DNA of 64,000 nucleotides from Candidatus Babeliales bacterium (lineage in GTDB: Bacteria > Babelota > Babeliae > Babelales > Vermiphilaceae): NCBI GenBank assembly GCA_963743635.1, contig CAVUQO010000002.1, positions 448,001 through 512,000 of the forward strand. Direction: 5' to 3'. The translations under genes were made by a program, and so were the position numbers. Positions 1,062 to 61,825 of the stretch are shown piece by piece; within the stretch, counting starts at the first letter, position 1, and each line of letters begins with the position of its first letter. The notes beneath the pieces were generated by a model that was not told the origin of the DNA, did not search any database, and saw only the letters and a list, made by a program, of their open reading frames with translations.

Positions 1062-2159
1062 ATGAATATCAGAATGCTGCTTTCGATAACGATTATTACA
1101 TCACCATATTTTGCGCATACAATGGCGCACCCAAATGTTGTTTCCATTGCTCATCAGCCTCTTACGGTATATGAGGTGGGCGGTATAGCGCGTGACGATT
1201 ATGTGAGATTGATGGTGGATGATGGTTGGAGTATTGATGATGAAGGTGATGGTTCTGAGCGAGTTAATATTGAGAGAGTGGGCACAAAAGCGGCTGATTT
1301 GGGGCAGCTCAATGGTACTTTATTGGATATTGCAATAGAGATGGATCCCAGAGATCCGCAATCCGATATAGTGTTATATGGGACTGGTGCTGGTGCTGCA
1401 ACAGCGATTAATTATGTAGCTATGGCTGAATCGATTGGGGCCGCTTCCGAACGCATTAAAGCCTTGATCTTGGAGTCTTCGTTTGCAAGCGGTAACAGTG
1501 CCATCGATTGTATAGTGAAAAATATACCGAATCGTTGGATGCCGCACACCTATTATACAACTCCCTATTTGACTGCGCAGGGCGCGGAATCTTGCTATGA
1601 TCCAGCCGCAGAACAACCAATCAAGTCGATAGCAAAAATCCCCAATGACATGCTGGTGATTCTCGCCCATTCAAAAGAGAATCCATGGCATGCATATGAG
1701 GATAGTTGCGCACTCTATTATGGCCTGCGCGCACAAGGGAACCCAAACGCCTATCTCATAACCAAAGAGGGTGAGGCGCGTGAGGAAATTTTGCATGGCA
1801 CAATCGAGGCGCCATTCATCAAAAATATGCTCAAAAAACATAAAATTATTCCGGGAAAGTATGATGCAACGATGGACGTCAGTCCGTACCAGCCCGACCA
1901 TAAGCAATTTGAAAAACTCTATAAAACATTACTCGCGAAAGAGAAAATGCATGAAACGTTGGGACATGGTGTGACAGTAGTGAAAGAGGGTGCGGCAGTA
2001 GTGAGGCAGGGGGCAGCTGACATTGCGGCAATAATGAATCGTCCGGAAATCAGGGATAACCTGATAATGCCCGTCGCGCTCATGGCAGCAGGCTCGGCGA
2101 TTGTATATGCGGGGCAGGTGGTAAGGGACATGGTTGGCGAGCGGGGGCATAATTATTAA
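1062..2159 (+). CDS. Alpha/beta-hydrolase paralog with signal peptide, catalytic triad apparently degenerate
   Basis: Aligns with ORF 1-957 (ESSFASGN/EGPFATGN, EQPIKSIAKIP/QQVIKSVSRLP, PYQPDH); GTGAG in place of GxSxG; RBS GAAGGG. Confidence 0.75.
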   Translation: MNIRMLLSITIITSPYFAHTMAHPNVVSIAHQPLTVYEVGGIARDDYVRLMVDDGWSIDDEGDGSERVNIERVGTKAADLGQLNGTLLDIAIEMDPRDPQSDIVLYGTGAGAATAINYVAMAESIGAASERIKALILESSFASGNSAIDCIVKNIPNRWMPHTYYTTPYLTAQGAESCYDPAAEQPIKSIAKIPNDMLVILAHSKENPWHAYEDSCALYYGLRAQGNPNAYLITKEGEAREEILHGTIEAPFIKNMLKKHKIIPGKYDATMDVSPYQPDHKQFEKLYKTLLAKEKMHETLGHGVTVVKEGAAVVRQGAADIAAIMNRPEIRDNLIMPVALMAAGSAIVYAGQVVRDMVGERGHNY

Positions 2160-2168
2160 TGCTTAATA

Positions 2169-2915
2169 TTATTGTTTTTCAAGAATTATTTTTCTTATCT
2201 CGATGATTTCTCGAAACTCTTCAGGATCATTTTTTTGTCCACATTCATCATCTAGCAGTTGTAGGGCATGAATTAAAGGGAAATTCTGCTGCGGGATGCC
2301 TCCATCAGATTTCTTACGCAATTCTTTCATGAAGTTTTCTAAGATAATGACCTTTTCTGGTGCTATTCCCTCAAGCACATCTCTAAGGTTACTCATAGTA
2401 TCAAGAACGCTATTAATTATTGATGTGGCTAAAGTACGGTGTCGGTCTTTGAGAGATGTGGTTAGTGATCTAAGAGATGCGACTGCCTTAGAAAGTGCAG
2501 CCAGGTTAGCCTCTTTTTTCTGGTTAACAAAAAATCTTGTTAATAATCGCTTAGATTCATCTGGTACCTTATCACTTGTCAAAACAAGACCGAGATTTTT
2601 AAAATCGGCTCTTTCAATGCGATTAATCATTTCAACTAAAGCTTTTAATATACCTTCGAGAGAACTTTTGTAGATACAAAAGAATATCAATAACGCCACA
2701 GGCCAATTAGTTTTTTCAAGAACATCTAGAATAAATTGTGCTATATGTAAAATAATTTTCCCACATAGAGATCTATTGGTCCAATACAAGAATGACATTA
2801 TCACAATGCTACATAGCAGAAATAGGCATTTAGTGTTTGTAATACACTCTATGTTTTTCTGCAAAGAGTTTTTTTGATCTAACATATTTTTATTGTGACA
2901 GCTTAGATTGCACAT
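2169..2915 (-). CDS. Hypothetical membrane protein, AT-rich
   Basis: 248-aa ORF with two hydrophobic segments (LFLLCSIVIMSFLYW, WPVALLIFFCIY). Confidence 0.6.
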   Translation of the reverse strand: MCNLSCHNKNMLDQKNSLQKNIECITNTKCLFLLCSIVIMSFLYWTNRSLCGKIILHIAQFILDVLEKTNWPVALLIFFCIYKSSLEGILKALVEMINRIERADFKNLGLVLTSDKVPDESKRLLTRFFVNQKKEANLAALSKAVASLRSLTTSLKDRHRTLATSIINSVLDTMSNLRDVLEGIAPEKVIILENFMKELRKKSDGGIPQQNFPLIHALQLLDDECGQKNDPEEFREIIEIRKIILEKQ

Positions 2916-2927
2916 ATTTTATCCTGA

Positions 2928-3266: not shown

Positions 3267-3296
3267 ATGCCCCCTAAGACAAGTTATTGATTGTAA

Positions 3297-6531: not shown

Positions 6532-6852
6532 TTAGTTATGCTTACTCAGTTTCTCATTGATGTAGTCATTGAGACTGATGCCCTTTTTGGTAGCTTCGAA
6601 AACAAGTAAGGCGTGCAGATCTGGTGACATTCTCAAATTCAATTTGCCTGAATATGTCTTCTCAGGTTTTTCGCCGCGTTTTTTACACCATTTGAGATAA
6701 TCATCGACCGAATCTTTGAAAGCTGTTTCGATTTCTTTGACGTTTGTCCCTTGAAAAGTAATGACGTCCTTGAGTCCAATTACTTCGCCATGGAAAATTT
6801 TTGCTTCATCATCGTATGCTACTTGTCCTATATATCCCTTATATTTCATCAT
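6532..6852 (-). CDS. hicB: Type II toxin-antitoxin HicB antitoxin
   Basis: MKYKGYIG...FHGEVIGLKDVITFQG...DYLKWC...YSGKLNLRM...SLN, typical HicB. Confidence 0.93.
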   Translation of the reverse strand: MMKYKGYIGQVAYDDEAKIFHGEVIGLKDVITFQGTNVKEIETAFKDSVDDYLKWCKKRGEKPEKTYSGKLNLRMSPDLHALLVFEATKKGISLNDYINEKLSKHN

Positions 6853-8942: not shown

Positions 8943-10401
8943 TCGTTACGATCCGAACAATTTAGGATCAAATCAAATGGCTTTTGTACGTCCCAGAGCA
9001 GGTTTTCATCTTCAAGCTCAAGTTCGAAGTACAAGCTTAATTAATTGCCGTTTTTCCTCAACTTCAGAACTCATCAAATAAATCATATGCTCGGTTAACA
9101 AGATCCAGAACATATTTTGCAGTGATATAATAGTTATCTTCTGCTTCTTGTAATTGCTCAAGACGAGATACTAATATCGGTCACTTGATCGCGTAAATGA
9201 TGTGTAAAATTTGTCATACTCGCTCATCAGTAATTCTCCCTTTGAGTTTATCAAGATAGAGATTATCCATCATTTTGGTGGTCGTTTTTTGTTCGGAAGT
9301 GAGCTTATCAAATTCTTTATTATGAAATTCAATTTTATCTTCATGCAACTGCATTGAGCGTTTCAATAATGCTTCAGAATACTTCTTTGGCATTTGAAGT
9401 TTTTAAATACTTCGCCTCAATTGTTCGGTAATCTCTTCTTCTCGCAACCATTTTGCCCCATGCTTGCCATTATATTGGGTGCAATGATAATAGACATGCC
9501 CTTTGTGCTTCTCAGGCGTTATAGATAATCCACATTCGTCACAACGAATAAGTCCGCGATAAATATAGGGATAGCCCGCATATTTAAATGGCTTTTTTTT
9601 AAATCCTTCCTTAATCTGTTGCACTTGATCAAAAAGTGCCTTGGTAATAATAGTTGGATAGCGATGGGGATATAATTTGCCTTTACGATCATCATTCCAT
9701 AAAAGAAATGGTTTTGTAAGCACTCTTCCCAATATAGCCTTTGGCCCATGCAAGCCCATAATCTTTTTTAACTTTCTTGCATAACAAATCCATTGAATAA
9801 GCGCCAGTGGCATAAAGTTCAAAAGCGTTTTACTACAATATGTGCTTCATATTCATCAACAATGATATCGGTATTGCCATCTGTTTTAGATTGATATTTT
9901 TATAACCATAAGGTGCCTTAGATGGCCATTCTCCTTTGCGTAGCTTTTGTTCTATGCGCTCGTTTTACATTATCACTAATAGCATCGGAATAATATTTGC
10001 CAAGTCCAAGGCTGATACTGAATTGGAATTTTTCTACTGCAGAAATTCGGCTGTTAATAATTTGACCATCAGATACAAAATGTAATTCTATTTCATCGTT
10101 AATGCTTTTTCATAAAGAACTGAGATGCGCTTATCAAATACATTTCGTGAAAGCCGATCAACTTTATCACAGCATACAGCAACTTTTCTTTCTGTTCAAG
10201 AATAAAATCGATAATACGATCAAATCTCGATCGATCATTGGTATAGGCGCTTTCATCAAAGCTACAGATTTGTAAAATTTCAAAGCCTTTGTTTTGACAG
10301 TATCTTTCAAGGCGTGCTACTTGTGCAGGTAGTGAATTGCCTGCTTCTCTTTGTTCTTCTGTGCTGACTCGTGCGATAGAATTGCTTTCATGCTGTTCCA
10401 T
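8931..10401 (-). pseudogene. Large serine recombinase (resolvase + recombinase + Zn-ribbon), multiply frameshifted
   Basis: ARVSTEEQ...SLPAQ catalytic motif (10099-10401); GLIRCDECG...YYHC Zn ribbon (9403-9822); terminal KPFDLI frame runs into the tRNA-Asp 3' end. Confidence 0.85.
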
Positions 10402-17886: not shown

Positions 17887-19044
17887 TTAGCCGATGCTAG
17901 AATCATCAGAATCATCGTCATCATCCCGAGCATCCTGAGCTTGACGAAGGACAGGATGAGGGTCAATAGGATGTATCTTTGGTAATGTCTCTGCGCGGCA
18001 TATTGGGCATTTTTTGTGCCCGGCATGTATTGATCTCAAAATGCAGTGTTCATGCAATACATGGAGGCAATCAAGCAATTCCGGATATCTTTGTCTAATA
18101 ACTCAAGACAAACAGTGCAATCGTTCGTTTTTGATTCAGTAATTTTGGCAGCGCGTTTTCTTGCATAGCAGTTCTCAAGATCGTGGCAAGAGTAGTAGTT
18201 GGGATTTACCTTTAAAAGGGAAGTTGCCGCATCTATCGACAGCCTTGCATACGATGTCTAAAGCTGTTTGATTGGAAAAATATTCGTTAGATGAATCTAT
18301 AGTGAAAGTTGGCTCCATACTTTTTAAGAACGGCTATTTTTTCATGCGCAGCGATGAGATCATTAGGATATTGCAGTATCTTTTCGCCCAACACAATAAG
18401 AGGAGTTTGTCCTTGCTTAACTTTATGAATTGCAGCTGGATCTTTATCGAGATGAATAATCCAAAATGTTCGCAGGGAAACGAGGATGGCAAACGCGATG
18501 TATCTGCGTACAAGAATCATTCTCTAGATCTTTTATAGATACAGAGCCCTTTTCTATTAATAATTTGGCTATCTCTAATGATTTTGCGATACGCAAGGGA
18601 GCTATACCATAAATGGGATTCGAGACAACATCAATTCCATGCGTTTTTTTGATACTATCGCGATTCTGGATAAGAAGCTGCCAGATGAACACATCATTTT
18701 TTTCCATTGCAGCACAGGCGATCTTATGATCATATTCGCCACATAATAGTGCGTGAGCAGTTTTATGACGGGTTTTAAGGTAAGTGTCCTCATACCTCCA
18801 ATAATCTTCTCGTTTGATTTGGAGAATAAAATCTTTGGCATCTCGGCGATCTGCATGCGTTAATGATGTGGGTACGTTCAGTGCACCAAACCTATAAGGA
18901 TTTTCTCCCGCATCTAAGGCCAATGCTTCAGACTCGCCGCAATGCCAACTCTTTTGCATCTGAACCATTACGCACATCCATTGCCTGCATAGTCGTATTT
19001 ATGAATAGACCAGCACACAGTATAGTTATTGGTAGTTTTAGCAT
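17887..19044 (-). pseudogene. Secreted ankyrin-repeat + C-terminal RING-H2 protein, frameshifted
   Basis: Start MLKLPITILCAGLFINTTMQAM; ankyrin-like APL...EIAKLLIEKG and GQTPL; RING reconstructed across frames CTVC...CLHVLHEHC...CPIC. Confidence 0.7.
17921..17959. repeat. REP-like palindrome inside coding sequence
   Basis: TCATCC...TCCTGAGCTTGACGAAGGA...GGATGA; 17935-17949 is the exact reverse complement of 30426-30440. Confidence 0.7.
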
Positions 19045-19613: not shown

Positions 19614-19627
19614 GATTTATCCTCATT

Positions 19628-20161: not shown

Positions 20162-20222
20162 TTTTTCTTACCTCTTCACGGCATGTATGCTTAAGCTCAA
20201 ATATCCAAAAAGATGCAAAAAG

Positions 20223-20861
20223 CTATTCTTTAAAGTTAGGATTGAACCAAGCCATGGGAATATCAGATTCAAATTTTCCAGAAACCCCCTTAATTTTCTT
20301 TTTAAATTCACCTTCTCGCACAAACCCAAGCCTTTCATAAAGTTTAATAGCAGGATTTGATTCTCGTGCAACAATCTCAATCCGTAAAATATCAGGCCGG
20401 TGATCTTTTACCTCATTCAATAAGGCAGTAAAAATTGAGCCCCCAATACCCATTCCCTGGAACTCAGGATCCACCAAAATACTACCCTCACTCATAACAT
20501 GTGAAAATACTTTTGGTTCAGGTTTGTATTTTATTACAGAACCAATTAAGGCGCCATTGTATTCTGCAACAAACATCAAACCCTTTTCAAGAGCCGCATT
20601 GATTGTTTTATCAATATATGAATCAGTGATCTCATCCGCTGTTCGCGCCAGGCCGCCTGGAATAGATGCAACTTTTATATAAAGCGCTTTGAGATTATCC
20701 CTATCACTCGTTTTTCCCTTGCGAACAATATACTCGATCTTAGTTTTTTCAGTTTTCTTTTGTTTTTCAATATTTTCTTCCGGTTTACTTGCTGATTGTT
20801 GCATGGCATATGATTGAGTCATGCCCATCAATACAATCACTAGAAAGATCTTATTTTCCAT
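20223..20861 (-). CDS. GNAT acetyltransferase with N-terminal signal peptide (tandem paralog)
   Basis: VDPEFQGMGIG; identical C-terminus ESDIPMAWFNPNFKE; N-terminus MENKIFLVIVLMGMTQSYA. Confidence 0.92.
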   Translation of the reverse strand: MENKIFLVIVLMGMTQSYAMQQSASKPEENIEKQKKTEKTKIEYIVRKGKTSDRDNLKALYIKVASIPGGLARTADEITDSYIDKTINAALEKGLMFVAEYNGALIGSVIKYKPEPKVFSHVMSEGSILVDPEFQGMGIGGSIFTALLNEVKDHRPDILRIEIVARESNPAIKLYERLGFVREGEFKKKIKGVSGKFESDIPMAWFNPNFKE

Positions 20862-21924: not shown

Positions 21925-22659
21925 TTATATAGAATCGTATATCGCGTGACTGCTTTTCTTGTGATAAGCCCAGTAGCGATCGCCAAAGGACCAGTGCCAA
22001 TATTCGGTAGGATAATTTACAAATCCAACCGCTTCCAATACTTCGCACATAATTTTTCTATATGATTGCGCCTGCATTGAGATTTTATCTGAATGGGTAG
22101 CTGATAGTTCGCCGGTCGTATCAGACATCCAATCTTTCACACAAATGCCCATATCGACGATATTGCCTGCATCATCAATTAAATAAACATCAAAGGCGCC
22201 GCCTGTTGAATGGGGAGGAATATTGGTTGAGCCATCTTTATTGATAACAGGAGATACAAGCTTAGTAGTTTCTTCAAAACATTGCTCTTGGCTCAATTCT
22301 GGATGCAACGCTTGCAGCTTTTGATAGCGATCGTCGAACAGTTTTTTCTGCGTCGATAAACTTCTATAACTTTCATAGATGCAGAAAGATAATCCCTGCG
22401 GCAATAATGCTTGAGCCTCTTTCAATTTGGTGTACACGGCCAGACGCATCTTGGTGTAATCCTGATTATCAGGGATTTCGGGCGATGGACCATACGCGAT
22501 GATTGTCTGATCTTTTAAATCGATGAGTGGCTCATGATTTTCAATAATGGGCACTTGTAATACACGCGAATCTGCTATGAGAACTATGGGATTTGATGTA
22601 GCGTCTGGATGCATATTGTAGGTGTTTAGAAGAACGGTCATTATAAAAATCCTGTGCAT
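21925..22659 (-). CDS. ddpX: D-alanyl-D-alanine dipeptidase (VanX/DdpX, peptidase M15D)
   Basis: YESYRS..Q, PPHSTGGAFD, EYWHWSFGD Zn-binding motifs. Confidence 0.88.
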   Translation of the reverse strand: MHRIFIMTVLLNTYNMHPDATSNPIVLIADSRVLQVPIIENHEPLIDLKDQTIIAYGPSPEIPDNQDYTKMRLAVYTKLKEAQALLPQGLSFCIYESYRSLSTQKKLFDDRYQKLQALHPELSQEQCFEETTKLVSPVINKDGSTNIPPHSTGGAFDVYLIDDAGNIVDMGICVKDWMSDTTGELSATHSDKISMQAQSYRKIMCEVLEAVGFVNYPTEYWHWSFGDRYWAYHKKSSHAIYDSI

Positions 22660-22757
22660 GAATTCGAATCTCGTTTTTATAGTATAGGCACTGTAATAAT
22701 CATTAATATATCTCATTTTAACGCAGAATCGTAGAAAAACTCTAAGCTACAAAAAAA

Positions 22758-25473: not shown

Positions 25474-25478
25474 ACCTT

Positions 25479-29761: not shown

Positions 29762-30169
29762 ATGAAAAAGATAATAATGAGTATAATACTGGCTGCGGCA
29801 TACATGCCGTTGCATGGTATGTTTGATCTTGTTTTCAAACGAGTTGGTAATGCATCACAGCCCAGTCATGAGATTGAAAGATTTGTTCCCAAAGAAGGAG
29901 AACCAGGGAAATACGAAGGCCCAGTAGAGTTCTGCGAGTTTGATGTAATGCGGCCGATGATACTGAAAGTACAGGAAGGCGATGTTGTAAAAATATCTAC
30001 GCATGTACCGATATTTGATTTTTATGCAGGTGAGACTCATTGTTGGCGTGCAAGTAAATATATTAGGATAGAACCAAAAGTTAGGGACTGTGTTGTTTTA
30101 TTATCCGAAGATTCCATTACGATCGCCAGTCACGAATATATTTTACGCCTAAAGCAACGATTTCAGTAA
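29762..30169 (+). CDS. Hypothetical secreted protein
   Basis: Signal peptide MKKIIMSIILAAAYMPLHG; RBS GGAAGG. Confidence 0.7.
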   Translation: MKKIIMSIILAAAYMPLHGMFDLVFKRVGNASQPSHEIERFVPKEGEPGKYEGPVEFCEFDVMRPMILKVQEGDVVKISTHVPIFDFYAGETHCWRASKYIRIEPKVRDCVVLLSEDSITIASHEYILRLKQRFQ

Positions 30170-32011: not shown

Positions 32012-33538
32012 TCATTGTATTGTCACCAGGACAGGAGTGCTTTCGCCAAGAATGCTGACGCTGGTTATCGAGAAATTTCTGCCATTATCACCATTTCCAA
32101 GACGCATTGTTGAGGTGAGCGGTGAAGTTGCGAGTACATTGCTCACGAGTGTCGTGCCGTTATAGATGTTGTATGAAACAACGTTCGTGCTGCTGCTTGC
32201 GGTCCAGGTGATGGTGAGAATGCGTTCTGTTTGATAAAGGAACACGTTGTTTGTGCGTGTACCAACAACGTTCGTAGGTGTGGATGGTGCTGGAGGAGTG
32301 GGCAAAGGCGTCGAATAAAATGATGCATACGCATTTGAATCATTAGAGTCGAGCCAGGTAGACACAAATCCACGAGTATTGGCGCTCAATGCAACGGCGC
32401 CTGTTATTGTGCTCGATTGGTTAGCCAAAATACAAGACATAGGCGTCCAATCGATGCCATTGTCCGTTGAGAGCAGCCATATAGGATTCCCATTAACATT
32501 CCAAGTGGACATAAAGCCCGCTTGATTAGCAGCAACCCATGGAGCAAAACATGTACCACTACCAGGAATAGGATTAGTAAATGGTGGTGTTGAGGTAAAT
32601 AAAGAAGCGGTTGCCCAATTGGCACTATTAGTACCGATTGAAAAAAGTGTTGCTCCTCCATTTATATTAGCGAGTGCGGCAGCTACAAAATATCCATTCA
32701 ATTCGGCTACAGTAGGAACAGTTTCAAACTCACCTATGTTAACCATGGGATAAATGGTCGGTGAAGTTGGTGAAAAAGGATTAATTGATTCAAAATATGC
32801 CGAATTTGTTTGATCGAGCCGTACGATCCAGGTAAGCATACAAGTATTGCCAACGACTACAGCGCTTACATATTGTTTTGGGGTTCCATTGACATTAAAT
32901 ACTGATCCATCAAAAGTAACTTGAGTTGGAGAACTCCATGCTGCAGTTCCGGTCGAAAAACTCACATATAAATTCTGATCATTTCCTATCATTGCAGCAA
33001 CAAAGCCTGATGATCCTCCGCTGACGTACACACTCGAGTTAGCCAAGAGTGGTGCTAATGCAGATGTGTTAGGATTTATTTGCATTGCTGCGCTCCAATT
33101 AGTGCCATTATCGGTTGTAAAGCTTGACCAGGCATTGCCATAACCATCTACCCACGTGGCTAAGAAGCCAGAGGCATTTCCAGCTAAAAAAACATCGACA
33201 TTAGGTCCAACATCTCCCAGAGCGGGGGTTATTAAACCGGTTTGCCAGGTAGAGCCATCGCTTGAAAAACTATAATGAGCGGTATTGTAAGAATCTACCC
33301 ACGCCACCATGAAACCGGCAGCGGTTCCCGCAGAAACTACGTCGCTGATGACGATGCCAGAATCGCTTAAATTGATCGGTGTGCTCCATGGCGTCGTTGA
33401 AGGGCATGACATTGCATCTAATCTTGATGCTATGAGGAGTAGAACAATAAACAAAAAACTTCTTTTGAGTAACGGAGATGTTCCGTGTTGTCCTGAGGGC
33501 TTTTGGTTGAACAAACGTTCACCGTGCATCATCATCAT
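32012..33538 (-). CDS. BNR/Asp-box repeat surface protein with C-terminal FN3-like domain
   Basis: SSDGSTW, TTDNGTNW, STDNGIDW Asp-boxes; GF.A.W.D repeats; shared C-terminal domain. Confidence 0.8.
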   Translation of the reverse strand: MMMMHGERLFNQKPSGQHGTSPLLKRSFLFIVLLLIASRLDAMSCPSTTPWSTPINLSDSGIVISDVVSAGTAAGFMVAWVDSYNTAHYSFSSDGSTWQTGLITPALGDVGPNVDVFLAGNASGFLATWVDGYGNAWSSFTTDNGTNWSAAMQINPNTSALAPLLANSSVYVSGGSSGFVAAMIGNDQNLYVSFSTGTAAWSSPTQVTFDGSVFNVNGTPKQYVSAVVVGNTCMLTWIVRLDQTNSAYFESINPFSPTSPTIYPMVNIGEFETVPTVAELNGYFVAAALANINGGATLFSIGTNSANWATASLFTSTPPFTNPIPGSGTCFAPWVAANQAGFMSTWNVNGNPIWLLSTDNGIDWTPMSCILANQSSTITGAVALSANTRGFVSTWLDSNDSNAYASFYSTPLPTPPAPSTPTNVVGTRTNNVFLYQTERILTITWTASSSTNVVSYNIYNGTTLVSNVLATSPLTSTMRLGNGDNGRNFSITSVSILGESTPVLVTIQ

Positions 33539-37753: not shown

Positions 37754-39943
37754 ATGAACAAAGGATTAATTATTATGTCTTTACTTGCAGTAAATTCTGC
37801 ACGCGATGCTCATTCCATGGACGCTCGCCTGCAAGCGCCGCCTTCCGGCGTTGAATGTTTTCATGAGATTGCAACCCAATATAACACTCAGCTTCCAGAT
37901 CTATGGAATAGCCTTACTCCAGAAGAACGTATATTTGCCTATTACATGACGCGTGCAAGCATTCCCGGCAACCGTATTATGGCTGATCAAAAGCATCGGC
38001 ACGCGGTAGAAATTATCGATCATTTTCATACGATTCTTGATAAAAAAGAGCAGGTAAAAGAGCGTTGCGGTGATGATATGGACGTTGATCAATTTATGCG
38101 TGATGCAGAGCTTTATTCAGTGTATCTTTTCGCGCATCATGGTCACTATTTCTTGAAAGAATTTGCTGATCACAAACGCACACCATCGCGCCTTAATCTT
38201 AAAACATTAACGCCGGAGAATATTTCTAAGGCATTGCAGGCAGTAGGGGTGCCAGAGGCGTCTGCCGTGGTTAACCGATTACATGCATCGATGTTTGATG
38301 CTCAGCATGAACCGACACTCGTAGTGGATGGCAGTATCGAGCAAAGCGCGGGCAACAAATATAGTCCTGATTTTACGCAGGCTGATTTTGAAAGCATGCT
38401 ACCGGAACTTAAGTGCGCGTTAAACGCTTATTTTTACATTGATCAAACTGATGGTAAGCGTGTGCCTAAAGTTCAAATTCATAAAGTTGGTGGTAGATAC
38501 TCAGACGAATTGGATGTTGCGCATCATTGGTTAAGTAAGGCATATGAGCATGCTCGAAAGCATCCAGCACATTTTGATGAACATATTCCCAAAAGCCTGG
38601 CGCACATGCTTGTTTACTTAAAGAGCGGCGATGAAAATGATTTTAAGAAATTTTCGATCGAATGGTTAAAAACAAACAGTCGCATCGATTTCAATTTTGG
38701 TTTTATAGAAACGCTTGATGATCCATTGGCGTATCGCGGCTCGTTTGAAGCGGACGTGACTATTAAGGCTGTCGATATGAAGAAATTAAATGCATTGCTT
38801 CCTGCGCTTGAGCGTCAATTGCCTTTCCCTGATGCATTCAAACGTCAAAATTTAGAGGATACATCGGCAATACCCAATGCTTCCGTGAATGCAAAAGTAT
38901 TTGCATCCGGTGATGCGGGCCCGGTGAAGTGTACAGCAGCCTATTGCTTGCCTAACTATACGGAAATTCGTGCAGCACATGGATCAAAGCAGATTATGTA
39001 TCAGCAGGGTAAAGGGCTTGGTGAACTGGTTAATCCAGAATTAGCATGCAATTTATTCTACATTAAAGAACACAAAGAGTGGCTTGCAAAACATGATTCT
39101 GAACGGCAACTTGCGCGTGATATATGGGATATGCATGTGGTGTTGCATGAAACATTAGGGCATGGCAGTGGCAGAAGTACGCAGCATACGTTTGTAGAAG
39201 GTGATCCGCTCACGATTGGCGGCGTAACCTACGCAGTGGGCGATGTTATTGACGTAACGAGCGACAATAGAACAGAGTTTTTTGGCAAATATGATGGTGC
39301 ATTTGAAGAATTGCGTGCAGAAATTCTTGCACTCTACACGAGTATGTATAATTTTGATGCACTGGCTGCGGGTGGTTTATACAAAGATTGGCCGGCAAAA
39401 CTGAGCAAAGAGACGCTTCAGGAATGGTGTATTCTTGAAATGGGATATTTAGCATTGCGTCGATTACTTGTACAGCCAGATGATGCTACCGAGATCGCAC
39501 AGGCTCATGCGCGTGCTGACACCGCTATTTTCAACTACTTGCTTGACCATGGTGGTTTAGAGCTCGTGGAAGAACAGTATGATGTTAACGGCGTGCCGCA
39601 TACCGTTGTGGGCGTACGCGTAACTGATCTTGCAAAAGCAATGGCAGCCGTCAAAGATATGGCATGCGAAGTGCAGCGCTGTACATCAACTGCTGATGGA
39701 TTGGGCGTTGAGAAGATTATGAAAACCTATGGCGTGTGCGTGCGACATCCGGAATACATTAAAATATTGAAAGCTAATCGTAAGGCTGCGCAGGGAGACT
39801 TGATCGAAGTTGCAGAAATATTCCCACGCTTAACTCCGATTAAAGATGCCGACAATGCGGTGGTGGATGTTGCCGCTGAATGGCCACACAGTTTCCTTGA
39901 ACAACAGCTTGAATTGCATAAGCTTGCGTTTTCTAAAGAGTAA
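37754..39943 (+). CDS. Dipeptidyl peptidase III (M49) with signal peptide
   Basis: HETLGHGSG hexapeptide Zn motif, EELRAE, GFIET..DP...RG.FE, QAHARA. Confidence 0.92.
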   Translation: MNKGLIIMSLLAVNSARDAHSMDARLQAPPSGVECFHEIATQYNTQLPDLWNSLTPEERIFAYYMTRASIPGNRIMADQKHRHAVEIIDHFHTILDKKEQVKERCGDDMDVDQFMRDAELYSVYLFAHHGHYFLKEFADHKRTPSRLNLKTLTPENISKALQAVGVPEASAVVNRLHASMFDAQHEPTLVVDGSIEQSAGNKYSPDFTQADFESMLPELKCALNAYFYIDQTDGKRVPKVQIHKVGGRYSDELDVAHHWLSKAYEHARKHPAHFDEHIPKSLAHMLVYLKSGDENDFKKFSIEWLKTNSRIDFNFGFIETLDDPLAYRGSFEADVTIKAVDMKKLNALLPALERQLPFPDAFKRQNLEDTSAIPNASVNAKVFASGDAGPVKCTAAYCLPNYTEIRAAHGSKQIMYQQGKGLGELVNPELACNLFYIKEHKEWLAKHDSERQLARDIWDMHVVLHETLGHGSGRSTQHTFVEGDPLTIGGVTYAVGDVIDVTSDNRTEFFGKYDGAFEELRAEILALYTSMYNFDALAAGGLYKDWPAKLSKETLQEWCILEMGYLALRRLLVQPDDATEIAQAHARADTAIFNYLLDHGGLELVEEQYDVNGVPHTVVGVRVTDLAKAMAAVKDMACEVQRCTSTADGLGVEKIMKTYGVCVRHPEYIKILKANRKAAQGDLIEVAEIFPRLTPIKDADNAVVDVAAEWPHSFLEQQLELHKLAFSKE

Positions 39944-45622: not shown

Positions 45623-47498
45623 ATGTGTCGAAAAAGATTATCGTTTATTCTTTGTCTTTTAAGTTTTGGCAGTTTTATCGCTGCAAATCAGGTTGTGAAC
45701 TGATAGTTCTGGCGCTGCAAGATTAGCCAATATTCTGGCTAATAATGAGACCGGTCTCGCTGCTTACAATAAAATCAATGTGTCTCCTGCCGATGTTCAA
45801 AACCTTCCGGTGGATCTCTATTTACGAGAAGCAAGCCGGGCTATGGGCTGCAGAACAGTCTGCGGAGAGGCGTATTTAGAAGAAAACTTAAAAAATCCTC
45901 ATAACAGCCAAGATAAAGCGGCTGTGTTGAGAAAACAAAAAATTATCAAAACATTGGTAGAAAATCCTGCGCTCAAGAAAAAAGTTGATGAATTTCTTCT
46001 ACTGGCTCGTGAGTATGAGCAGGACGTCATTACGTTCTATTCAGATACGTTTAAAAATCAACGGAGCGGGGAGCTTGCGCGCTTGGATGTTACCAAGGTT
46101 GAGTATCCGATAATGTATCCCGTATCGAAGTTTTTGACGGCACAAGATTTTGGCAGAAGCATATACACACTCATCACAGCAGGAACGGGTATTTATGGTA
46201 CTGCAAATGGTGTGTTCAAGAGTGTCAGTGATACCGTCTCTTGCGCAGAAAAAGCGTTGGCGGGGACTACTGAAACGATCAAAATTATTGCGCTAAAAAA
46301 AGCGCTTTCGGGCACAACTGAAACCATTCAGGAGTCGACTACTAGTCCTATGGGCTTTGCGCTTCAAGCGGCTGGATCGGGTACTTGGGCGAGCATTTTA
46401 TCCATGACGTTTTGTTACACGCTTTACAGCTTCTATCATGATTATGCTAATGCATCAGTGAAGCGATCGAAAATGCACGGATTGAGTAAATTGGTTGAAA
46501 TTGCCAAAGAAATTGAAGCATTGAGTGCCGAACATTCAATAGAAACGCAGTTTAAGGTGAGCGATATTCAAGATGAAAAAGGTATCGATCTTCTTGATGC
46601 CTTGAATCAGCCTCGCTATACAGAGAAAACGTCTAACTTCTTTGCCTTGCCATTAGTGCATACGATGTCTTATAAATTGTATACCCATGATAAACAGCTT
46701 GCGCCGGTATTTGCCTGCATTGCGGAAATGGATGCCTATAATGCGCTTGCTACGAAAATCATCGAATCAAAAGATGCCACCAATAAGTTTTGTTTTGTGA
46801 ACTTTATAGATGATGCAAAGCCGCGTATTGAGGCAAAATCATTCTGGAACGTGCTCGTTAAAAACGCAGTGGTAAACGATATGAAAGAAGACAAGAATGT
46901 CATTCTAACCGGCCCTAATGCGGGCGGTAAATCAACCGCGATCAGGGCGCTCTTGCTGAATATTGTGTTGGCGCAAACATTTGGCGTTGCAGCAGCTGAA
47001 GAATTTAATCTCACGATGTTTGATGTGATTCATTCATATCTCAATGTGTCAGACGATATTCTCAATGGGGATTCGCTCTTTAAAGCAGAGGTTAAACGGG
47101 CGCAAAGCATTCTGCAAAAAATTAAATCATTAAATCCGAATCAAAAATATTTCTTTGCATTGGATGAATTATTCACCGGTACGGGCGCTGAATATGGTGA
47201 GCAATGTGCACATCAATTTATAAAGCGATTGGCTCATTACAAGAATGTGCAATTTTTATATGCAACGCACTTTGATAAGCTCAAGTTGATGGGTTACACC
47301 AATCCCGCATTTACCAATTATCAGGTTGATGCGCCGACAAAAAATGATGAAGATAAATTGGTATATCCATTTACGTTAAGTCAGGGCGCAAGCACCGTTA
47401 ATATTGCGCTTGATATTGCAGCTGAGGCAGGACTCTTTGATGAAGACGTTGACTATGAAGAAGCAGCTGCGTTGGATGAGCTCTTAGCGGAAGACTAA
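45623..47498 (+). CDS. MutS domain V ATPase paralog 1 with signal peptide and internal hydrophobic segments (5' region frameshifted)
   Basis: Walker A TGPNAGGKS, SLFKAE, LDELFTGT, YATHF; N-terminus reconstructed from 45623 (MCRKRLSFILCL...GLAAYNK) matches paralog 2. Confidence 0.85.
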
Positions 47499-50785: not shown

Positions 50786-51099
50786 TATAACTCCATTTGT
50801 TAGTATCTAAGGGATTTTTAACATGTTTCAGTATACGGACTTTTACATTTTTGGCAACGCAGGGGCTTTTTAGGAGTGGCAGATTGTGCCTTTATACAGG
50901 AGGTTTTAGCCAACTTTGGGCATCATTATATGAACTATCTGAGCGTGCAAAAATGGGCAATAGTGCTCAAAAAAGCCCTAAAGTAAAGCAAAATCCTTGT
51001 TCTATTATTGCAATTTGGTACTCTTGGTGAAGTATGCCCTTATGGGGGTATACCGTATATCTAAGTACATATTCAATTATAGGCGGGGAGCCAGAAAGC

Positions 51100-52893
51100 A
51101 TGGTTACATACCAAAAAAGAATGTCGTTACTATTGTGTCTGTTAATGAGTGGAGCAGCATTTGCTGATGAGGCTCAGACTCAGCCCCTCGTAAGTGGTGA
51201 GCAAAAGGTGCTTAATATTATGACCGACTCTCAAGAAGGGGTTGCGGCCTATAATAAAGAACATCTTAAGCTTGCTGAATCAGTAAATCTTGCAACCGAT
51301 TTAAATATTGCAGCTATCACTGAACGGTTGGGATGCAAGACTCATATGGGTAGAGCATTTCTGCAAGAATCATTATCATCACCGCTCAATACGGAAAATA
51401 AAGACGTTCTTTTAAAGAGACAACAGATCATCAGAGCATTGGTTGAAAATCCTGAACTCAAGCAAGAAGTAGAAGAAATGATTGAGCATGCTCGGAAACA
51501 TGAAGAGCATGTTATGACATTATTGTCAGATGATTTTAAAAATCAAAAGAGCCCGCAAGTTGCCGAATTGGAGAACATAAAAACTCAAAATCCATGGCTC
51601 TATAGATTCGCTAAATCTATAAACAAAAGTACTACTGTAGCCACAATAGGGCACGGTTTGGGAGTGCTGACAATAGCAGGTATGGTTTATGCAACAAAGT
51701 ATTTCGGTGAAATTGCAAAACAAGGTATAGAAACAGTATATAAAGCGAAAAAAGCGGGAGCAACAGTATTGTGGACGGACTCTGGATTGATGTCTGTAAA
51801 TGCATATGCAGCTCTTGTAGCTGTGTTGTGTGTAGAGACAGCGTATTGCGGAGGTTTCACTGGTTATACAACCTATAAATTTGCTGAAAATTATATGAAT
51901 AATGTTGCAAAACGCCAAAAAATGCATTCGTTATATACGCTCATTAAGATTGCAGAAAAATCTGAGGCGCTTTGTGCGAAGTATAACCTTGACTCGCAAT
52001 TTAAAATGAGTGCTATTGAGAATAAAACTGCGATTGCACTTATCGATAGTTTGAAAAGTTCACGCTATGAAGATGTTGACGCAATGTTGGTATTTAGCCC
52101 AGCTGTTCAGACGCTGGCCATAAAATTATATGAAGAAGATAAAAATCTTGCGCAACTTTTTGCCTGCATTGCAGAATTAGATGTGTATAATGCGTTAGCC
52201 AACAAAATTATTGAATCTAAAGAAAAGGATCATACGTTCTGTTTTGCTACCTTTATCGATGATGCAAAGCCGGCCATAAAGACTGAGGGTTTCTGGAACA
52301 TACTGGTGGATAATCCGGTGGTAAACGGTATCTCCCAAGATCAGCATGTAATTCTCACCGGACCAAATGCGGGCGGTAAAACAACTTCAATTCGATCATT
52401 GTTGCAAAATATTGTCCTCGCGCAGACGTTTGGCGTTGCGGCGGCTGAAACGTTTGAACTCACTATGTTTGATGTTATTCACTCATTCCTCAATGTTTCA
52501 GACGATCTGATTAATGGCGACTCTCTCTTTAAGGCAGAAGTAAAACGAGCTCAAGGTATCTTGCAAAAGATTCAATCGCTTGAACCCGGTAAGAAATATT
52601 TCTTTGCCCTTGATGAACTGTTTACCGGAACCGGTGCAGTAGAGGGTGAACAATGTGCCTATGCCTTTATCAATCGAATCGCGGATTTTGAGAACATTCT
52701 CTTTATCTATGCAACCCACTTTAACAAGCTTAAAGAGTTGGCGGATACTAATAGCAATTGCGCGAACTATAAAGTTGATGCGCCGACACGTGATGAAAAC
52801 GGTAAATTGGTCTATCCATTTACACTCAGCCCAGGGGCGAATCAGATCAATGTTGCGATTGATATTGCACAAGAAGCAGGTTTATTTGCCTAA
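51100..52893 (+). CDS. MutS domain V ATPase paralog 2 with signal peptide and two hydrophobic segments
   Basis: MSLLLCLLMSGAAFA signal; TGPNAGGKTT, SLFKAE, LDELFTGT, YATHF; no GxFYE mismatch-recognition domain. Confidence 0.9.
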   Translation: MVTYQKRMSLLLCLLMSGAAFADEAQTQPLVSGEQKVLNIMTDSQEGVAAYNKEHLKLAESVNLATDLNIAAITERLGCKTHMGRAFLQESLSSPLNTENKDVLLKRQQIIRALVENPELKQEVEEMIEHARKHEEHVMTLLSDDFKNQKSPQVAELENIKTQNPWLYRFAKSINKSTTVATIGHGLGVLTIAGMVYATKYFGEIAKQGIETVYKAKKAGATVLWTDSGLMSVNAYAALVAVLCVETAYCGGFTGYTTYKFAENYMNNVAKRQKMHSLYTLIKIAEKSEALCAKYNLDSQFKMSAIENKTAIALIDSLKSSRYEDVDAMLVFSPAVQTLAIKLYEEDKNLAQLFACIAELDVYNALANKIIESKEKDHTFCFATFIDDAKPAIKTEGFWNILVDNPVVNGISQDQHVILTGPNAGGKTTSIRSLLQNIVLAQTFGVAAAETFELTMFDVIHSFLNVSDDLINGDSLFKAEVKRAQGILQKIQSLEPGKKYFFALDELFTGTGAVEGEQCAYAFINRIADFENILFIYATHFNKLKELADTNSNCANYKVDAPTRDENGKLVYPFTLSPGANQINVAIDIAQEAGLFA

Positions 52894-60573: not shown

Positions 60574-60967
60574 TTTTCTTACGAATGGCGACACCCATAG
60601 GGGTAGATGCCGCCACTGTATTATTTATTCTCTTTGAATTTTATCAAGATCCGGGTGGGGGAAGCAAGAGATTGGCAAAAAAGGACCGGATATGGGTGCA
60701 AATTTGAGCGACTTACAGGTTCAAGTTGTCGAGACTGAGGGGGTGGTTTTGCTTGTGTTGTATCATTCAGATAGAATATTTTGGCAAGAATGGTCCTTAG
60801 TGTGGTCATGAATTTTGCAATTGCCCATTACTGGAGCGATTTTTGTAAGAGTTTTTCTGAGTATTGAATTTGCGTCTACATAGTCCATTTATATTGACTT
60901 TTTGATCAAAAAGTTCACACTTGAATTCTTATTTTTTATCTCTCTATAACGATTTTGAGGATTTCAT

Positions 60968-61825
60968 ATGAAGAAATTAATAATAATAGCAGCTAGCCTA
61001 CTTTCGTTCAGTGCCATCTATTCGATGGATAAGGGTGAAAGTCCGGCCAAAAATACCTTTAGTACCTCCGACATGCGGGCATCCTTAGGAGAAATTGAAA
61101 TAAAGCCTGAGGCTAAACGATCTTATTATTACGAAGGAAATGAGGTCGATGAGTTTTCTCAGATAATAGAAAGAAAAGTTAAAGCAGCAGGTAGCTCATC
61201 CAGTTCGCAGGCTGATAAAGCGGTGGTTCCTTCTCAAACGGCACCAGTACTGCCATATCCACGCTGTTATTTTTCGAACGACATCAAAGCTGCATTTTTA
61301 AATTGCATTGCAAATGAGCAAAAAGGAATGCGTGGCGCCTGGTATCGATTTACTTTGTACGATGCGGCTTCGGCTATGGTTAAGGGCATGAAAGAAAGAA
61401 ATATGACCATTAAATTGGTGATAGATGAAAAGCACCTTACTGATGATTTTTGTTCTCCGCTGAGGCAGGTTATCAATAACGGAGGCACTGTGTTTAAGAT
61501 TACTCAGAAAGGATTTTCTCATAATCCAGGTAATTTTGAAATTATGCATCATAAGTTTATGATATTTCGTAAAAACGTGAATGATAAAAAACTTCTCTGG
61601 ACAGGCTCATGGAATGCAACTGGCCAGGCATCTTCAAAAAATTGGGAAGATGCTCTTATTATAGATGATTCGGAGACCATTGCGCGGTACGAAGAGAGAA
61701 TGACGGAACTTGAAAAGCATAGTGTTGCGATTCAATCTAACCAGTGTGTGAGTGGCAAAGATACCGATCCGAGTATTAATTTTGCCCGCCGCATGAACGG
61801 AATACCTCAACTCTCTCAGTACTAA
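60968..61825 (+). CDS. Single-domain phospholipase D-family protein (Nuc/PLDc_2-like) with signal peptide
   Basis: MHHKFMIF...WTGSWNAT...NWED; Y.FT and LVID motifs. Confidence 0.85.
   Translation: MKKLIIIAASLLSFSAIYSMDKGESPAKNTFSTSDMRASLGEIEIKPEAKRSYYYEGNEVDEFSQIIERKVKAAGSSSSSQADKAVVPSQTAPVLPYPRCYFSNDIKAAFLNCIANEQKGMRGAWYRFTLYDAASAMVKGMKERNMTIKLVIDEKHLTDDFCSPLRQVINNGGTVFKITQKGFSHNPGNFEIMHHKFMIFRKNVNDKKLLWTGSWNATGQASSKNWEDALIIDDSETIARYEERMTELEKHSVAIQSNQCVSGKDTDPSINFARRMNGIPQLSQY

What the first reader, a model, noticed from the sequence alone, without database searches (positions are those of the whole stretch)
1062..61825. Recurrent 'signal peptide then Met' signature on exported proteins: a possible host-delivery code
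Seen: at least eight unrelated proteins have Met right after the likely signal-peptidase site. They are AHT|MAH (1062), MQA|MDV (Ank-RING 19044), SYA|MQQ (GNAT 20861), TYN|MHP (DdpX 22659), LHG|MFD (29762), LDA|MSC (33538), AHS|MDA (DPP III 37754) and IYS|MDK (PLD 60968). Established: Met is uncommon at +1 of mature Sec substrates. In eukaryotes, Met is stabilising under the Arg/N-end rule and Met-Asp/Glu/Asn/Gln starts are NatB acetylation substrates. Inference: cleavage may yield proteins that look like native host cytosolic proteins. Alternatively the pattern records signal-peptide cassettes grafted in front of the original start codon of cytosolic genes. Cleavage sites were judged by eye.
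Basis: partly seen in the sequence, partly recalled or inferred. Interest (0 to 1): 0.75.

Follow-up and report, generated by a model that had tools for sequence, protein, structure and literature searches.

The report
Methionine rule after Dependentiae signal peptides
In this protist-parasite bacterium about a fifth to a third of export signals are predicted to be cut just before a methionine, usually followed by an acidic or amide residue; this unpublished lineage-wide rule marks the effector-like secreted proteins, and its purpose is unknown.

Summary
The pattern is real and genome-wide. The genome (1.45 Mb) belongs to the Dependentiae/TM6, order Babeliales. With my own gene caller and a cut-site picker that ignores position +1, Met is the commonest +1 residue. 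It occurs in 93 of 524 signal-peptide-like proteins against a 2.1% background, and in 33 of 268 after removing paralogues. An E. coli control gave 0 of 21.

The motif has three parts: [A>S,G] | M | [D,Q,E,N]. It recurs in 7 of 9 sampled Babeliales genomes.

Met-type proteins carry WD40, C2H2, RING/IBR, DnaJ, Sel1 and GNAT domains. Envelope housekeeping proteins such as TolC-like and ZnuA lack the Met.

The Met is not an internal start, because no Shine-Dalgarno sequence precedes it. It is rarely the old start codon, in 1 of 55 pairs, although in DPP III it is. Shared 5'UTR-plus-signal-peptide DNA modules end at this Met.

The function, whether a sorting or stability tag on the mature N-terminus, is inferred only. 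This scan noted the same rule earlier in two other Dependentiae genomes. I found no published description.

The parts
1062..2159 (+). Exported protein of unknown family. Leader MNIRMLLSITIITSPYFAHT, junction Met codon 1122-1124 (AHT|MAH).
   Evidence: 4-nt SD match before ATG 1062, none before the junction Met. No Pfam hit. A relative at 90% identity or more has Ile at this place. Weak example.
17887..19044 (-). Broken 'Ank-RING' gene. A 38-aa first ORF (18928-19044) carries the leader and MQA|MDV (Met codon 18979-18981). Later pieces lie in other frames.
   Evidence: ORF pieces; only a partial RING match in 17887-18078, below the Pfam cut-offs, and no Ank match; 5-nt SD match before the first ATG.
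20223..20861 (-). GNAT acetyltransferase with leader MENKIFLVIVLMGMTQSYA. Junction Met codon 20802-20804 (SYA|MQQ), followed by a polar linker of about 22 aa before the domain.
   Evidence: The neighbouring leaderless paralogue 19628-20161 starts about 16 aa after the junction Met. Of 150 family representatives, 129 lack a leader, and many listed ones start at about query residues 42-45.
21925..22716 (-). Peptidase_M15 (D-Ala-D-Ala dipeptidase type). Claimed site TYN|MHP, Met codon 22612-22614.
Evidence: Doubtful case.
29762..30169 (+). Small exported protein. Leader MKKIIMSIILAAAYMPLHG, junction Met codon 29819-29821 (LHG|MFD).
   Evidence: The long form is the public gene call.
32012..33538 (-). 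508-aa exported protein with no Pfam hit. Junction Met codon 33410-33412 (LDA|MSC), after a long n-region.
   Evidence: 5-nt SD match before the first ATGs, 0 before the junction Met.
37754..39943 (+). Dipeptidyl-peptidase III (Peptidase_M49) with leader MNKGLIIMSLLAVNSARDAHS. Junction Met codon 37817-37819 (AHS|MDA).
   Evidence: Orthologues in 40 Babeliales loci keep a Met, or start, 1-6 residues before the conserved Leu-x-x-Ala-Pro, with or without a leader.
60968..61825 (+). PLD-like protein (PLDc_2) with leader MKKLIIIAASLLSFSAIYS. Junction Met codon 61025-61027 (IYS|MDK).
   Evidence: Homologues occur in 56 of 121 Babeliales genomes. Of 30 loci, 28 have a leader and 7 were flagged as having a junction Met; L211 adds an eighth by eye. 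By hand tally, 7 of these 8 are forms of 281-424 aa.

Best explanation
These are ordinary Sec signal peptides, cut by signal peptidase I (SPase I). They obey a lineage-specific junction rule: small residue (Ala > Ser, Gly) at -1, Met at +1, and Asp/Gln/Glu/Asn at +2. The mature exported protein is therefore predicted to begin Met-[D/E/Q/N].

The rule holds for about a fifth to a third of the secretome of this Dependentiae (Babeliales) bacterium and for several related families. It marks the accessory, effector-like exported proteins and not the envelope housekeeping set. It is spread partly by 5'UTR-plus-leader DNA modules reused on unrelated proteins.

Shown: the enrichment, the coupling to +2, the spread across the lineage, the bias in domain content, the lack of an internal ribosome-binding site, and the module sharing.

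Inferred: the functional element is the new N-terminus made by cleavage. It would act as a tag for what happens after the periplasm. That could be passage through the secretin/T2SS-type route, which is the only secretion system found. Or it could be protection of the N-terminus outside the bacterium, for example Met capping residues that would otherwise be N-degrons in a host cytosol.
For: Enrichment:
- Blind +1 Met in 93 of 524, 8-13x background.
- Singletons 33 of 268.
- Met ratio 15.3 against a median of 3.3 over the 20 residues.
- E. coli control 0 of 21.

Coupling to +2:
- D/E/Q/N make up 67% of residues after Met, against about 20% in controls.
- The patch decays from .55 at +2 to about .23 by +6-+8.

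Spread across the lineage:
- Met is the top residue in 7 of 9 Babeliales samples. Met-aware counts are G009 19/62, G013 13/49, G034 18/47, and weaker in G067, G066, G072 and G028.
- PLD homologues in families f1, f2 and f5 keep the junction Met while the following residues differ.

Domain content:
- Of 150 Met-type proteins scanned (out of 170), 46 have a Pfam hit. By hand count, 27 carry WD40, C2H2, RING/IBR, Ank, DnaJ, Sel1/TPR, AAA/NACHT, GNAT or sulfotransferase domains.
- Of 89 non-Met proteins, 29 have hits, including OEP, ZnuA, T2SSC, OMP_b-brl and BatD. Fisher P 1e-4.

The leaders are real and translated:
- An SD match of at least 4 nt precedes the upstream start in 92.5% of the 93.
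- Codon-position mismatch rates are .19/.14/.31.
- Public gene calls use the long form in 5 of 5.
- n-, h- and c-region measures do not differ between the classes; only total leader length differs slightly (20.2 against 21.2 aa, P 0.02).

Secretion systems in this genome: two secretins and two SPase I genes are present. VirB4, FHIPEP and VipB were not found, in a genome rated 85% complete. The Babela paper reports T2SS as the only secretion system (passages read).
Against: - Cleavage sites are predictions from a home-made picker. No SignalP or N-terminal proteomics was available.
- The Met is labile in single genes. A relative of ORF 1062 at 90% identity or more has Ile. The closest GNAT representatives have leaders but no Met at +1, and only 1 of 16 leader-bearing representatives was flagged.
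- One sample (G071) shows 0 of 24.
- The classes are not clean. The Met class holds beta-lactamase-like, NamZ, Peptidase_M15 and thioredoxin proteins. The non-Met class holds Ank (2), AAA and PLA2_B.
- Paralogy and module sharing inflate the raw counts. 65 of 170 Met-type genes sit in clusters with similar 5' DNA.
- Among leader-bearing homologues in relatives, class is only weakly inherited: 7 of 27 against 2 of 27, P 0.14.
- No result here bears on sorting, host entry, acetylation or stability.
Confidence: 0.45

Rival explanations
1. Evolutionary by-product. Leader modules (short 5'UTR plus signal peptide) are copied or recombined in front of formerly cytosolic genes. The Met is the recipient's old start codon, or the module's last codon, and has no function of its own.
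For: - 35 clusters (123 genes) share 5'UTR-plus-leader DNA. 81 of these genes sit in clusters that hold more than one unrelated mature family. One such leader type sits on small proteins of 98-106 aa, on two DnaJ proteins and on a 794-aa AAA protein.
- The DNA similarity ends a median 4 nt after the junction ATG. The modal bin is 0-8 nt, with 31 of 115.
- Met-type genes are over-represented in such clusters: 65 of 170, against 13 of 89 non-Met.
- In DPP III the Met sits where leaderless orthologues start.
- g0807 and g0200 (80% identical) differ by exactly the leader.
- Met-type proteins more often have leaderless homologues: 28 of 55 against 9 of 36, P 0.017.
Against: - Only 1 of 55 pairs of a Met-type protein and a leaderless homologue puts residue 1 at the junction Met.
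- GNAT leaderless homologues start about 22-25 residues downstream.
- The residue after the Met (D, Q, E, N) is unlike position 2 of real starts in this genome, where K, I, A and S lead.
- A graft gives no reason for the -3/-1 site to abut the ATG exactly.
- Singletons outside any cluster still show 12% +1 Met, and 33 of 63 singleton Met-type proteins have D/E/Q/N next.
- Constraint on the leader alone would also make similarity stop near the cut site.
Confidence: 0.3
2. A dedicated signal peptidase. One of the two tandem SPase I paralogues prefers Met at P1' and acidic or amide residues at P2', so the motif reflects enzyme specificity for a subset of substrates.
For: Two Peptidase_S26 genes lie in tandem at G000 C3:523091-524866. 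Many Babeliales genomes have two. The Bacteroidetes Q-rule is a precedent for a phylum-specific P1' rule (PMC5837995, abstract and passages).
Against: Copy number does not track the motif. G034 has one match and a strong motif (18 of 47). G067 has two and a weak motif (7 of 48). The leaders of the two classes are otherwise alike. As I recall, SPase I tolerates most P1' residues.
Confidence: 0.1
3. Alternative translation start. The junction Met is a second initiation site that yields a cytosolic isoform beside the exported one.
For: DPP III orthologues: an SD match of at least 4 nt precedes the inner ATG in at least 13 of the loci listed. My SD-weighted picker starts 13 of 40 proteins at that Met.
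Against: - In G000 an SD match of at least 4 nt precedes the junction Met in 13 of 170 (7.6%). That compares with 5 of 89 at the +1 codon of non-Met sites, 9.6% for internal Mets, and 81% for true starts.
- The same holds in G009 (1 of 19), G013 (1 of 13) and G034 (3 of 18).
- The +2 composition is unlike that of real starts.
Confidence: 0.08
4. Artefact. The sites were picked by eye or by my picker with too much freedom, or the hydrophobic 'leaders' are untranslated upstream sequence and the Met is the true start.
For: Two of the eight window cases are weak. My signal-peptide filter lets in membrane proteins such as a SecY piece, FtsW and a pilin. With a free choice of site, about 7% of leaders would show any given 2%-frequency residue (median ratio 3.3).
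Against: The picker ignores +1 and still gives 18% Met. E. coli gives 0 of 21. Met stands 4-5x above the median residue. SD sites sit before the long start. The leader region evolves as coding sequence.
Confidence: 0.03

Closest known systems
Bacteroidetes Q-rule (Gln at P1' of SPase I substrates, cyclised to pyroglutamate). PMC5837995: abstract and passages read. PMC10653852: abstract start in a search listing.
   Same: A phylum-specific preference for one residue directly after an otherwise classical Sec/SPase I leader, so that cleavage exposes a defined N-terminus.
   Different: Here the residue is Met followed by D/E/Q/N, not Gln (Gln is 5% at +1). The rule covers a subset that excludes envelope housekeeping proteins, whereas the abstracts describe the Q-rule as holding for most SPase I substrates. 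No modifying enzyme is known here. A word search of the Q-rule paper finds no 'methionine', 'TM6' or 'Dependentiae'.
Plasmodium PEXEL / host-targeting motif. bioRxiv 10.1101/2023.07.12.548774 and PMC3567231: abstract starts seen in search listing.
   Same: A short motif just after the ER-type leader is cleaved, and the newly exposed N-terminus is what matters for export into the host cell. As recalled, the residue after the first one is E/Q/D.
   Different: That system is eukaryotic, uses a different protease (plasmepsin V), an RxL core and a known translocon. Here SPase I would make the N-terminus and no translocation step is known. The resemblance is functional analogy only.
Bacteroidetes lipoprotein export signal (PMC5080379: title and abstract start seen in a search listing) and the +2 Lol-avoidance rule (recalled).
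   Same: As I recall, residues directly after the leader cut site, rich in acidic residues, decide where an exported protein ends up beyond the inner membrane. The listing's abstract start does not state this.
   Different: Those act on lipoproteins with Cys at +1 cut by SPase II. Here the proteins are soluble SPase I substrates with Met at +1.
Classical Sec/SPase I signal peptides with the -3/-1 rule (recalled knowledge).
   Same: Positively charged n-region, hydrophobic h-region, and small residues at -3/-1. All are met.
   Different: Met is rare at +1 in classical sets (0 of 21 in my E. coli control). Here it is the commonest +1 residue.
Borrelia lipoprotein families sharing upstream homology boxes and leader peptides (recalled; no call).
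   Same: A conserved 5' region plus leader on proteins whose mature parts are unrelated.
   Different: Those are plasmid-borne lipoprotein paralogues, and no Met rule is known there. I did not check this in the literature tools.

Membership tests
Sec / signal peptidase I signal peptide | Positively charged n-region followed by a hydrophobic h-region of about 8-15 residues within the first ~30 residues | tested here: met
   524 of 1399 predicted proteins pass my filter. Listing. n-, h- and c-region measures are alike in the Met and non-Met classes; only total leader length differs slightly (20.2 against 21.2 aa, P 0.02).
Sec / signal peptidase I signal peptide | Small residues at -3 and -1 before the cut | tested here: met
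   Before the first Met within 12 residues after the h-core, found in 266 of 524 leaders and with no -3/-1 filter, the preceding residue is Ala in 95, Ser in 40 and Gly in 19. The picked sites show Ala 67 of 93 at -1 and Ala/Val 52 of 93 at -3, but the picker selects for small residues there.
Sec / signal peptidase I signal peptide | The leader is translated from an upstream start | tested here: met
   An SD match of at least 4 nt precedes the upstream start in 92.5% of the 93. There is an excess of third-position changes. Public gene calls use the long form in 5 of 5.
Sec / signal peptidase I signal peptide | Actual cleavage at the predicted bond | not testable with these tools
   Needs N-terminal sequencing or proteomics. 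SPase I genes are present.
Bacteroidetes Q-rule | Gln at +1 in most SPase I substrates | tested here: not met
   Gln is 0.05 at +1 at site score 5 or more, and is not among the seven commonest +1 residues listed for the full set. Met is 0.18-0.27.
Bacteroidetes Q-rule | Glutaminyl cyclase that modifies the new N-terminus | not tested
   No search for a cyclase or other N-terminus-modifying enzyme was made. Several leader-bearing GNATs were seen, but nothing links them to this.
Lipoprotein (SPase II) signal peptide | Lipobox with Cys at +1 | tested here: not met
   Met-type sites have Met at +1. Cys-type sites form a separate set (Cys ratio 6.6 in G000 and 24.6 in E. coli).
Internal (alternative) translation start | Ribosome-binding site 4-12 nt upstream of the inner ATG | tested here: not met
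   13 of 170 (7.6%), against 81% for real starts and 9.6% for internal Mets. It is met in many DPP III orthologues of other genomes.
PEXEL-like host-targeting motif | RxLxE/Q/D some 15-30 residues after the leader, and a dedicated protease | not tested
   No scan for RxL was made. The likeness is only that cleavage exposes an N-terminus with D/E/Q at its second place.

The most novel reading that the evidence does not exclude
The Met-[Asp/Glu/Gln/Asn] N-terminus made by signal-peptide cleavage is a delivery or survival code for Dependentiae effectors. It would sort periplasmic intermediates to the secretin/T2SS-type exit. Once in the protist cytosol, it would present the one kind of N-terminus that is neither trimmed by methionine aminopeptidase nor read as an Arg/N-degron. 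It would look like a host NatB-type protein start. That would be a bacterial counterpart of PEXEL, and a way to predict the effector set of a whole phylum from sequence.
Probability: 0.22. Interest if true: 0.9.

Novelty: new variant of a known kind. Interest (0 to 1): 0.66.

Why it matters
Dependentiae export a very large share of their proteins. 44% of CDS carry signal sequences in Chromulinavorax (PMC6561590), and 37% pass my filter here. Only a T2SS-type system is known, so how effectors are chosen and reach the host is an open question.

A simple sequence rule that separates effector-like from housekeeping exported proteins would give a testable handle on that question. It would be a second example, after the Bacteroidetes Q-rule, of a phylum rewriting the residue after the signal-peptidase cut. 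It would also flag many genes where an in-frame ATG sits 20 codons into the reading frame, which matters for start-codon annotation.

Reuse of the same 5'UTR-plus-leader module on unrelated proteins also suggests how a parasite can quickly turn cytosolic or acquired proteins into secreted ones.

Tried and rejected
- Relic-start test. I ran blastp of 170 Met-type proteins against leaderless homologues in G000 and four relatives. Only 1 of 55 pairs aligned residue 1 to the junction Met. I rejected this as the general cause.
- Internal SD test. No enrichment, so I rejected alternative initiation for G000.
- Nucleotide-level signal around the junction. Nothing beyond the codons themselves, and Ala codon use is like the rest of the genome.
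- SPase I copy number against motif strength. No relation.
- Differences in leader features between the classes. None beyond a 1-aa difference in total length.
- Inheritance of class among homologues in relatives. Suggestive only: 7 of 27 against 2 of 27, P 0.14.
- GNAT family survey. Of 150 representatives, 129 have no leader, 15 have a leader without a junction Met, 1 was flagged and 5 are partial. The Met is therefore not conserved in that family.
- RNA evidence. No RNA holder was listed among 11 runs, and read laying was not used.
Families f4 and others therefore remain unsampled, and G066, G072, G071 and G028 rest on 100 kb each.
- Literature. Searches, and word searches in PMC6561590, PMC4378268, PMC4776705 and PMC5837995, found no description of a Met rule. 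Supplements were not read.
- No structure or complex prediction was run, because none bears on the question.


Full report
**What the window is.** The window lies at G000:C2:448001-512000 of a 1.45-Mb, three-contig genome with about 42% G+C. Loci encoding relatives of its DPP III carry titles such as Candidatus Dependentiae, candidate division TM6, Babeliales and Babeliaceae. Relatives have genomes of 0.8-1.9 Mb. The region is rich in accessory genes: Ank, TPR, GNAT, sulfotransferase, PLA2_B, PLD, DPP III, MutS-like ATPases and several broken genes.

**Check of the eight cases.**
- Five are good Sec-type leaders: GNAT 20861, ORF 29762, ORF 33538, DPP III 37754 and PLD 60968. Each has a Shine-Dalgarno (SD) match of at least 4 nt before the first ATG and none before the junction Met.
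- ORF 1062 is plausible, but a relative at 90% identity or more has Ile where it has Met.
- The 'Ank-RING' gene is broken. Its leader sits on a 38-aa ORF, and only a partial RING match is found further on.
- For five genes I looked up both forms in the public protein collection. The long form is there in 5 of 5 and the form starting at the junction Met in 0 of 5.

**Is it more than chance?** No gene finder or SignalP was on hand, so I wrote my own tools.
- The ORF picker uses codon log-odds and chooses starts by SD match. It gives 1399 genes, of which 81% have an SD match of at least 4 nt at the chosen start.
- The leader filter requires a positive n-region, an 8-residue h-core with mean Kyte-Doolittle 2.0 or more, and 10-32 uncharged residues.
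- The cut-site picker scores only -3, -1 and the distance from the h-core, so it ignores +1.
- 524 proteins pass. +1 is Met in 93 of them (18%, background 2.1%). The figure is 54 of 278 at site score 4 or more, and 27% of 138 at score 5 or more.
- Independent of any site choice, Met frequency rises to about 10% at 6-8 residues after the h-core and is about 2% further on.
- To control for the freedom of choosing a site, I counted for each of the 20 residues how many leaders have a permissive -3/-1 site before that residue. I then divided by the residue's background frequency. Met scores 15.3, the next residue (Cys) 6.6, and the median is 3.3.
- After linking proteins by any protein similarity or 5' DNA similarity (315 components), singletons still give 33 of 268 (P 9e-16).
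- The same pipeline on 250 kb of E. coli K-12 gives 0 of 21. It recovers the cut sites of OmpA, DsbA, PldA and UshA as I recall them from the literature.

**Anatomy of the motif.**
- With the -3/-1 filter applied, -1 before the Met is Ala (67 of 93), Gly or Ser, and -3 is Ala or Val in 52 of 93. The picker selects for these. An unfiltered count agrees: the residue before the first Met after the h-core is Ala in 95, Ser in 40 and Gly in 19 of 266 leaders.
- After the Met come Asp .24, Gln .19, Glu .15 and Asn .09. That is 67%, against about 20% at position 2 of proteins without a signal peptide and about 22% at +1 of non-Met sites.
- Hydrophobic, small and basic residues are all depleted after the Met.
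- The D/E/Q/N excess fades from .55 at +2 to about .23 by +6-+8.
- A Met-aware count gives 170 of 524 leaders (class M). 89 leaders with a strong site and no Met nearby form class N.
- The two classes do not differ in n-region length or charge, h-core hydrophobicity or c-region length. Total leader length differs slightly (20.2 against 21.2 aa, P 0.02).
- There is no nucleotide-level oddity.

**Are the leaders real, and is the Met a start?**
- An SD match of at least 4 nt precedes the upstream start in 92.5% of the 93 genes, but precedes the junction Met in only 4.3%.
- For class M the figure is 13 of 170, like the +1 codon of class N (5 of 89) and below internal Mets (9.6%).
- Paralogous leaders differ mostly at third codon positions (.19/.14/.31, chi-square P 2e-18; the pairs are not independent).
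- So the leader is translated, and the Met is not an SD-led start in this genome.

**Spread in the lineage.**
- Samples of 200 kb give Met-aware classes of 19 of 62 (G009), 13 of 49 (G013), 18 of 47 (G034) and 7 of 48 (G067). The same ...A|MD/ME look appears and there is no inner SD.
- With four more 100-kb samples, Met is the top-ranked residue in 7 of 9 Babeliales samples.
- It is strong in families f1 and f11 (ratios 12-16) and weaker in f12, f6, f3 and f5 (6.5-11). It is absent in the f13 sample (0 of 24).

**What kind of proteins carry it.**
- Pfam at E 1e-6 or better on 150 of the 170 class M proteins gives 46 with a hit.
- The hits, tallied by hand from the output, are WD40 (9), C2H2 zinc fingers (2), RING/IBR (2), Ank (1), DnaJ (2), Sel1/TPR (3), AAA/NACHT-like (2), GNAT (4), sulfotransferase (2), PAF-AH (2), DPP III, PLD, LigD_N, lactonase/NHL+fn3 (3), DUF5092 and others. 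There is also a beta-lactamase-like protein, NamZ, Peptidase_M15 and a thioredoxin.
- Two hits are false leaders (a SecY piece and a pilin).
- On all 89 class N proteins, 29 have a hit. They include OEP/TolC, ZnuA, T2SS-C, OMP_b-brl, BatD, Transgly and a periplasmic thioredoxin. They also include Ank (2), AAA, PLA2_B and lactonases.
- Eukaryote-like or regulatory domains make up 27 of 46 against 4 of 29 (Fisher P 1e-4). I sorted the Pfam names into this group by hand, after seeing which class each protein belonged to.
- Orphans are equally common in both classes (104 of 150 and 60 of 89).
- The genome has two secretins. VirB4, FHIPEP and VipB were not found, in a genome rated 85% complete. This fits the published view that a T2SS is the only secretion system of Babela and TM6 (passages in PMC4378268 and PMC4776705).

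**Is the Met a leftover start codon?** In DPP III, yes.
- Across 40 complete orthologues a Met, or the start itself, lies 1-6 residues before the conserved Leu-x-x-Ala-Pro in about 26.
- My picker starts 13 of the 40 proteins at that Met.
- At least 13 loci have an SD match of at least 4 nt before the inner ATG ('QGDS|M' is read from ..GGAG..).
- There the residue after Met is not D/E/Q/N-rich.

In general, no.
- Of 55 pairs of a class M protein and a leaderless homologue whose N-terminus is inside the alignment, one (g0807/g0200) puts residue 1 on the junction Met.
- In the GNAT family, 129 of 150 representatives lack a leader, and many listed ones begin about 22-25 residues after the junction Met of the window's protein. 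The closest leader-bearing ones have no Met at +1.
- The +2 composition is unlike that of real starts.

**Leader modules.**
- 35 clusters (123 genes) share DNA similarity over the leader and the short 5'UTR. 81 of those genes are in clusters with more than one unrelated mature family.
- One example is a leader 'MKR[IT]Y..II...QAM' on proteins of 98, 99 and 106 aa, on two DnaJ proteins and on a 794-aa AAA protein.
- Similarity starts a median 20 nt before the start codon and ends a median 4 nt after the junction ATG.
- Class M is over-represented in such clusters: 65 of 170 against 13 of 89.
- This fits either reuse of modules by recombination, or constraint confined to the leader. I cannot tell which.

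**Conservation in orthologues is mixed.**
- PLD homologues occur in 56 of 121 Babeliales genomes. Of 30 loci, 28 have leaders and 7 were flagged with a junction Met (8 with L211 by eye). These fall in families f1, f2 and f5, and the residues after the Met differ. By my hand tally, 7 of the 8 are forms of 281-424 aa.
- Against this stand the ORF 1062 relative and the GNAT relatives.
- The Met thus looks like a preference that is regained and lost, not a strict requirement.

**Reading.** The best-supported account is a lineage-specific junction rule on ordinary Sec leaders. It marks the effector-like secretome and defines the mature N-terminus as Met-[D/E/Q/N].
- Two ideas about its role are inference by analogy: that this N-terminus is a sorting or stability tag, and that Met caps residues which would be N-degrons in a eukaryotic cytosol while avoiding Met-aminopeptidase and Met-hydrophobic degrons.
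- The analogies are the Bacteroidetes Q-rule (PMC5837995, PMC10653852), PEXEL and the Bacteroidetes lipoprotein export signal (PMC5080379). The N-degron and NatB rules are recalled, not checked here.
- The main rival is that the Met is a by-product of module grafting.

**Earlier notes and novelty.** Two earlier notes of this scan (e1-2372423, e1-2087300) describe the same Met rule in other Dependentiae genomes. My counts agree with them. This report adds:
- the contrast with housekeeping proteins
- the module boundary at the junction Met
- the SD and relic-start tests
- the survey by family

I found no published description (searches; word searches). Supplements were not read.

Noticed in passing
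G000 genome-wide, e.g. C1:33654 (g0035), C2:560455-562338 (g0542, g0110, g0632), C2:46676 (g0148), C3:586978 (g0669): The same 5'UTR-plus-signal-peptide DNA module sits on unrelated mature proteins (small orphans, two DnaJ proteins, a 794-aa AAA ATPase). In all there are 35 such clusters with 123 genes, and similarity stops at the junction Met.
   Followed up: partly
G000 C3:523091-524866 (outside the window): Two signal peptidase I (Peptidase_S26) genes lie in tandem. One matches the family model in two stretches, which suggests an insertion. Many Babeliales genomes also have two.
   Followed up: partly
Loci L022-L054 (DPP III orthologues of other Dependentiae): Many orthologues have both an upstream leader-encoding start and an inner ATG with its own GGAG-type ribosome-binding site, read in frame as 'QGDS|M'. 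This is a candidate for dual exported and cytosolic isoforms.
   Followed up: partly
G000 C3, loci L147:13013-15976(-) and L147:10876-12735(-); C2, L118:17884-19179(+): Leader-bearing proteins with many eukaryote-type C2H2 zinc fingers (987 and 619 aa), and an RBR-type (RING-IBR-IBR) protein, all with a junction Met.
   Followed up: no
window 25461-26417 (+); 61972-63445 (+); 9403-10401 (-): Genes that look split or frameshifted. An ABC ATPase is in two ORFs (25461-25787, 25788-26417). A Na+/H+ exchanger is in two overlapping frames (61972-62985, 62657-63445). Serine-recombinase pieces lie at 10099-10401 and 9403-9822.
   Followed up: no
window 45780-47498 (+) and 51034-52893 (+): Two MutS domain V (and III) proteins with no mismatch-recognition domain matched.
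   Followed up: no
window 19089-20861 (-) and 24922-25473 (+): Four GNAT genes lie close together. One has a leader and a junction Met, and two are of the Acetyltransf_3 family, which I recall as RimJ/RimL-like. Genome-wide, at least four more GNATs carry leaders. Whether any acts on protein N-termini is unknown.
   Followed up: no
window 6532-6852 (-): A HicB-family antitoxin gene (Pfam E 5e-21). The Babela paper also reports a HicA-HicB pair.
   Followed up: no
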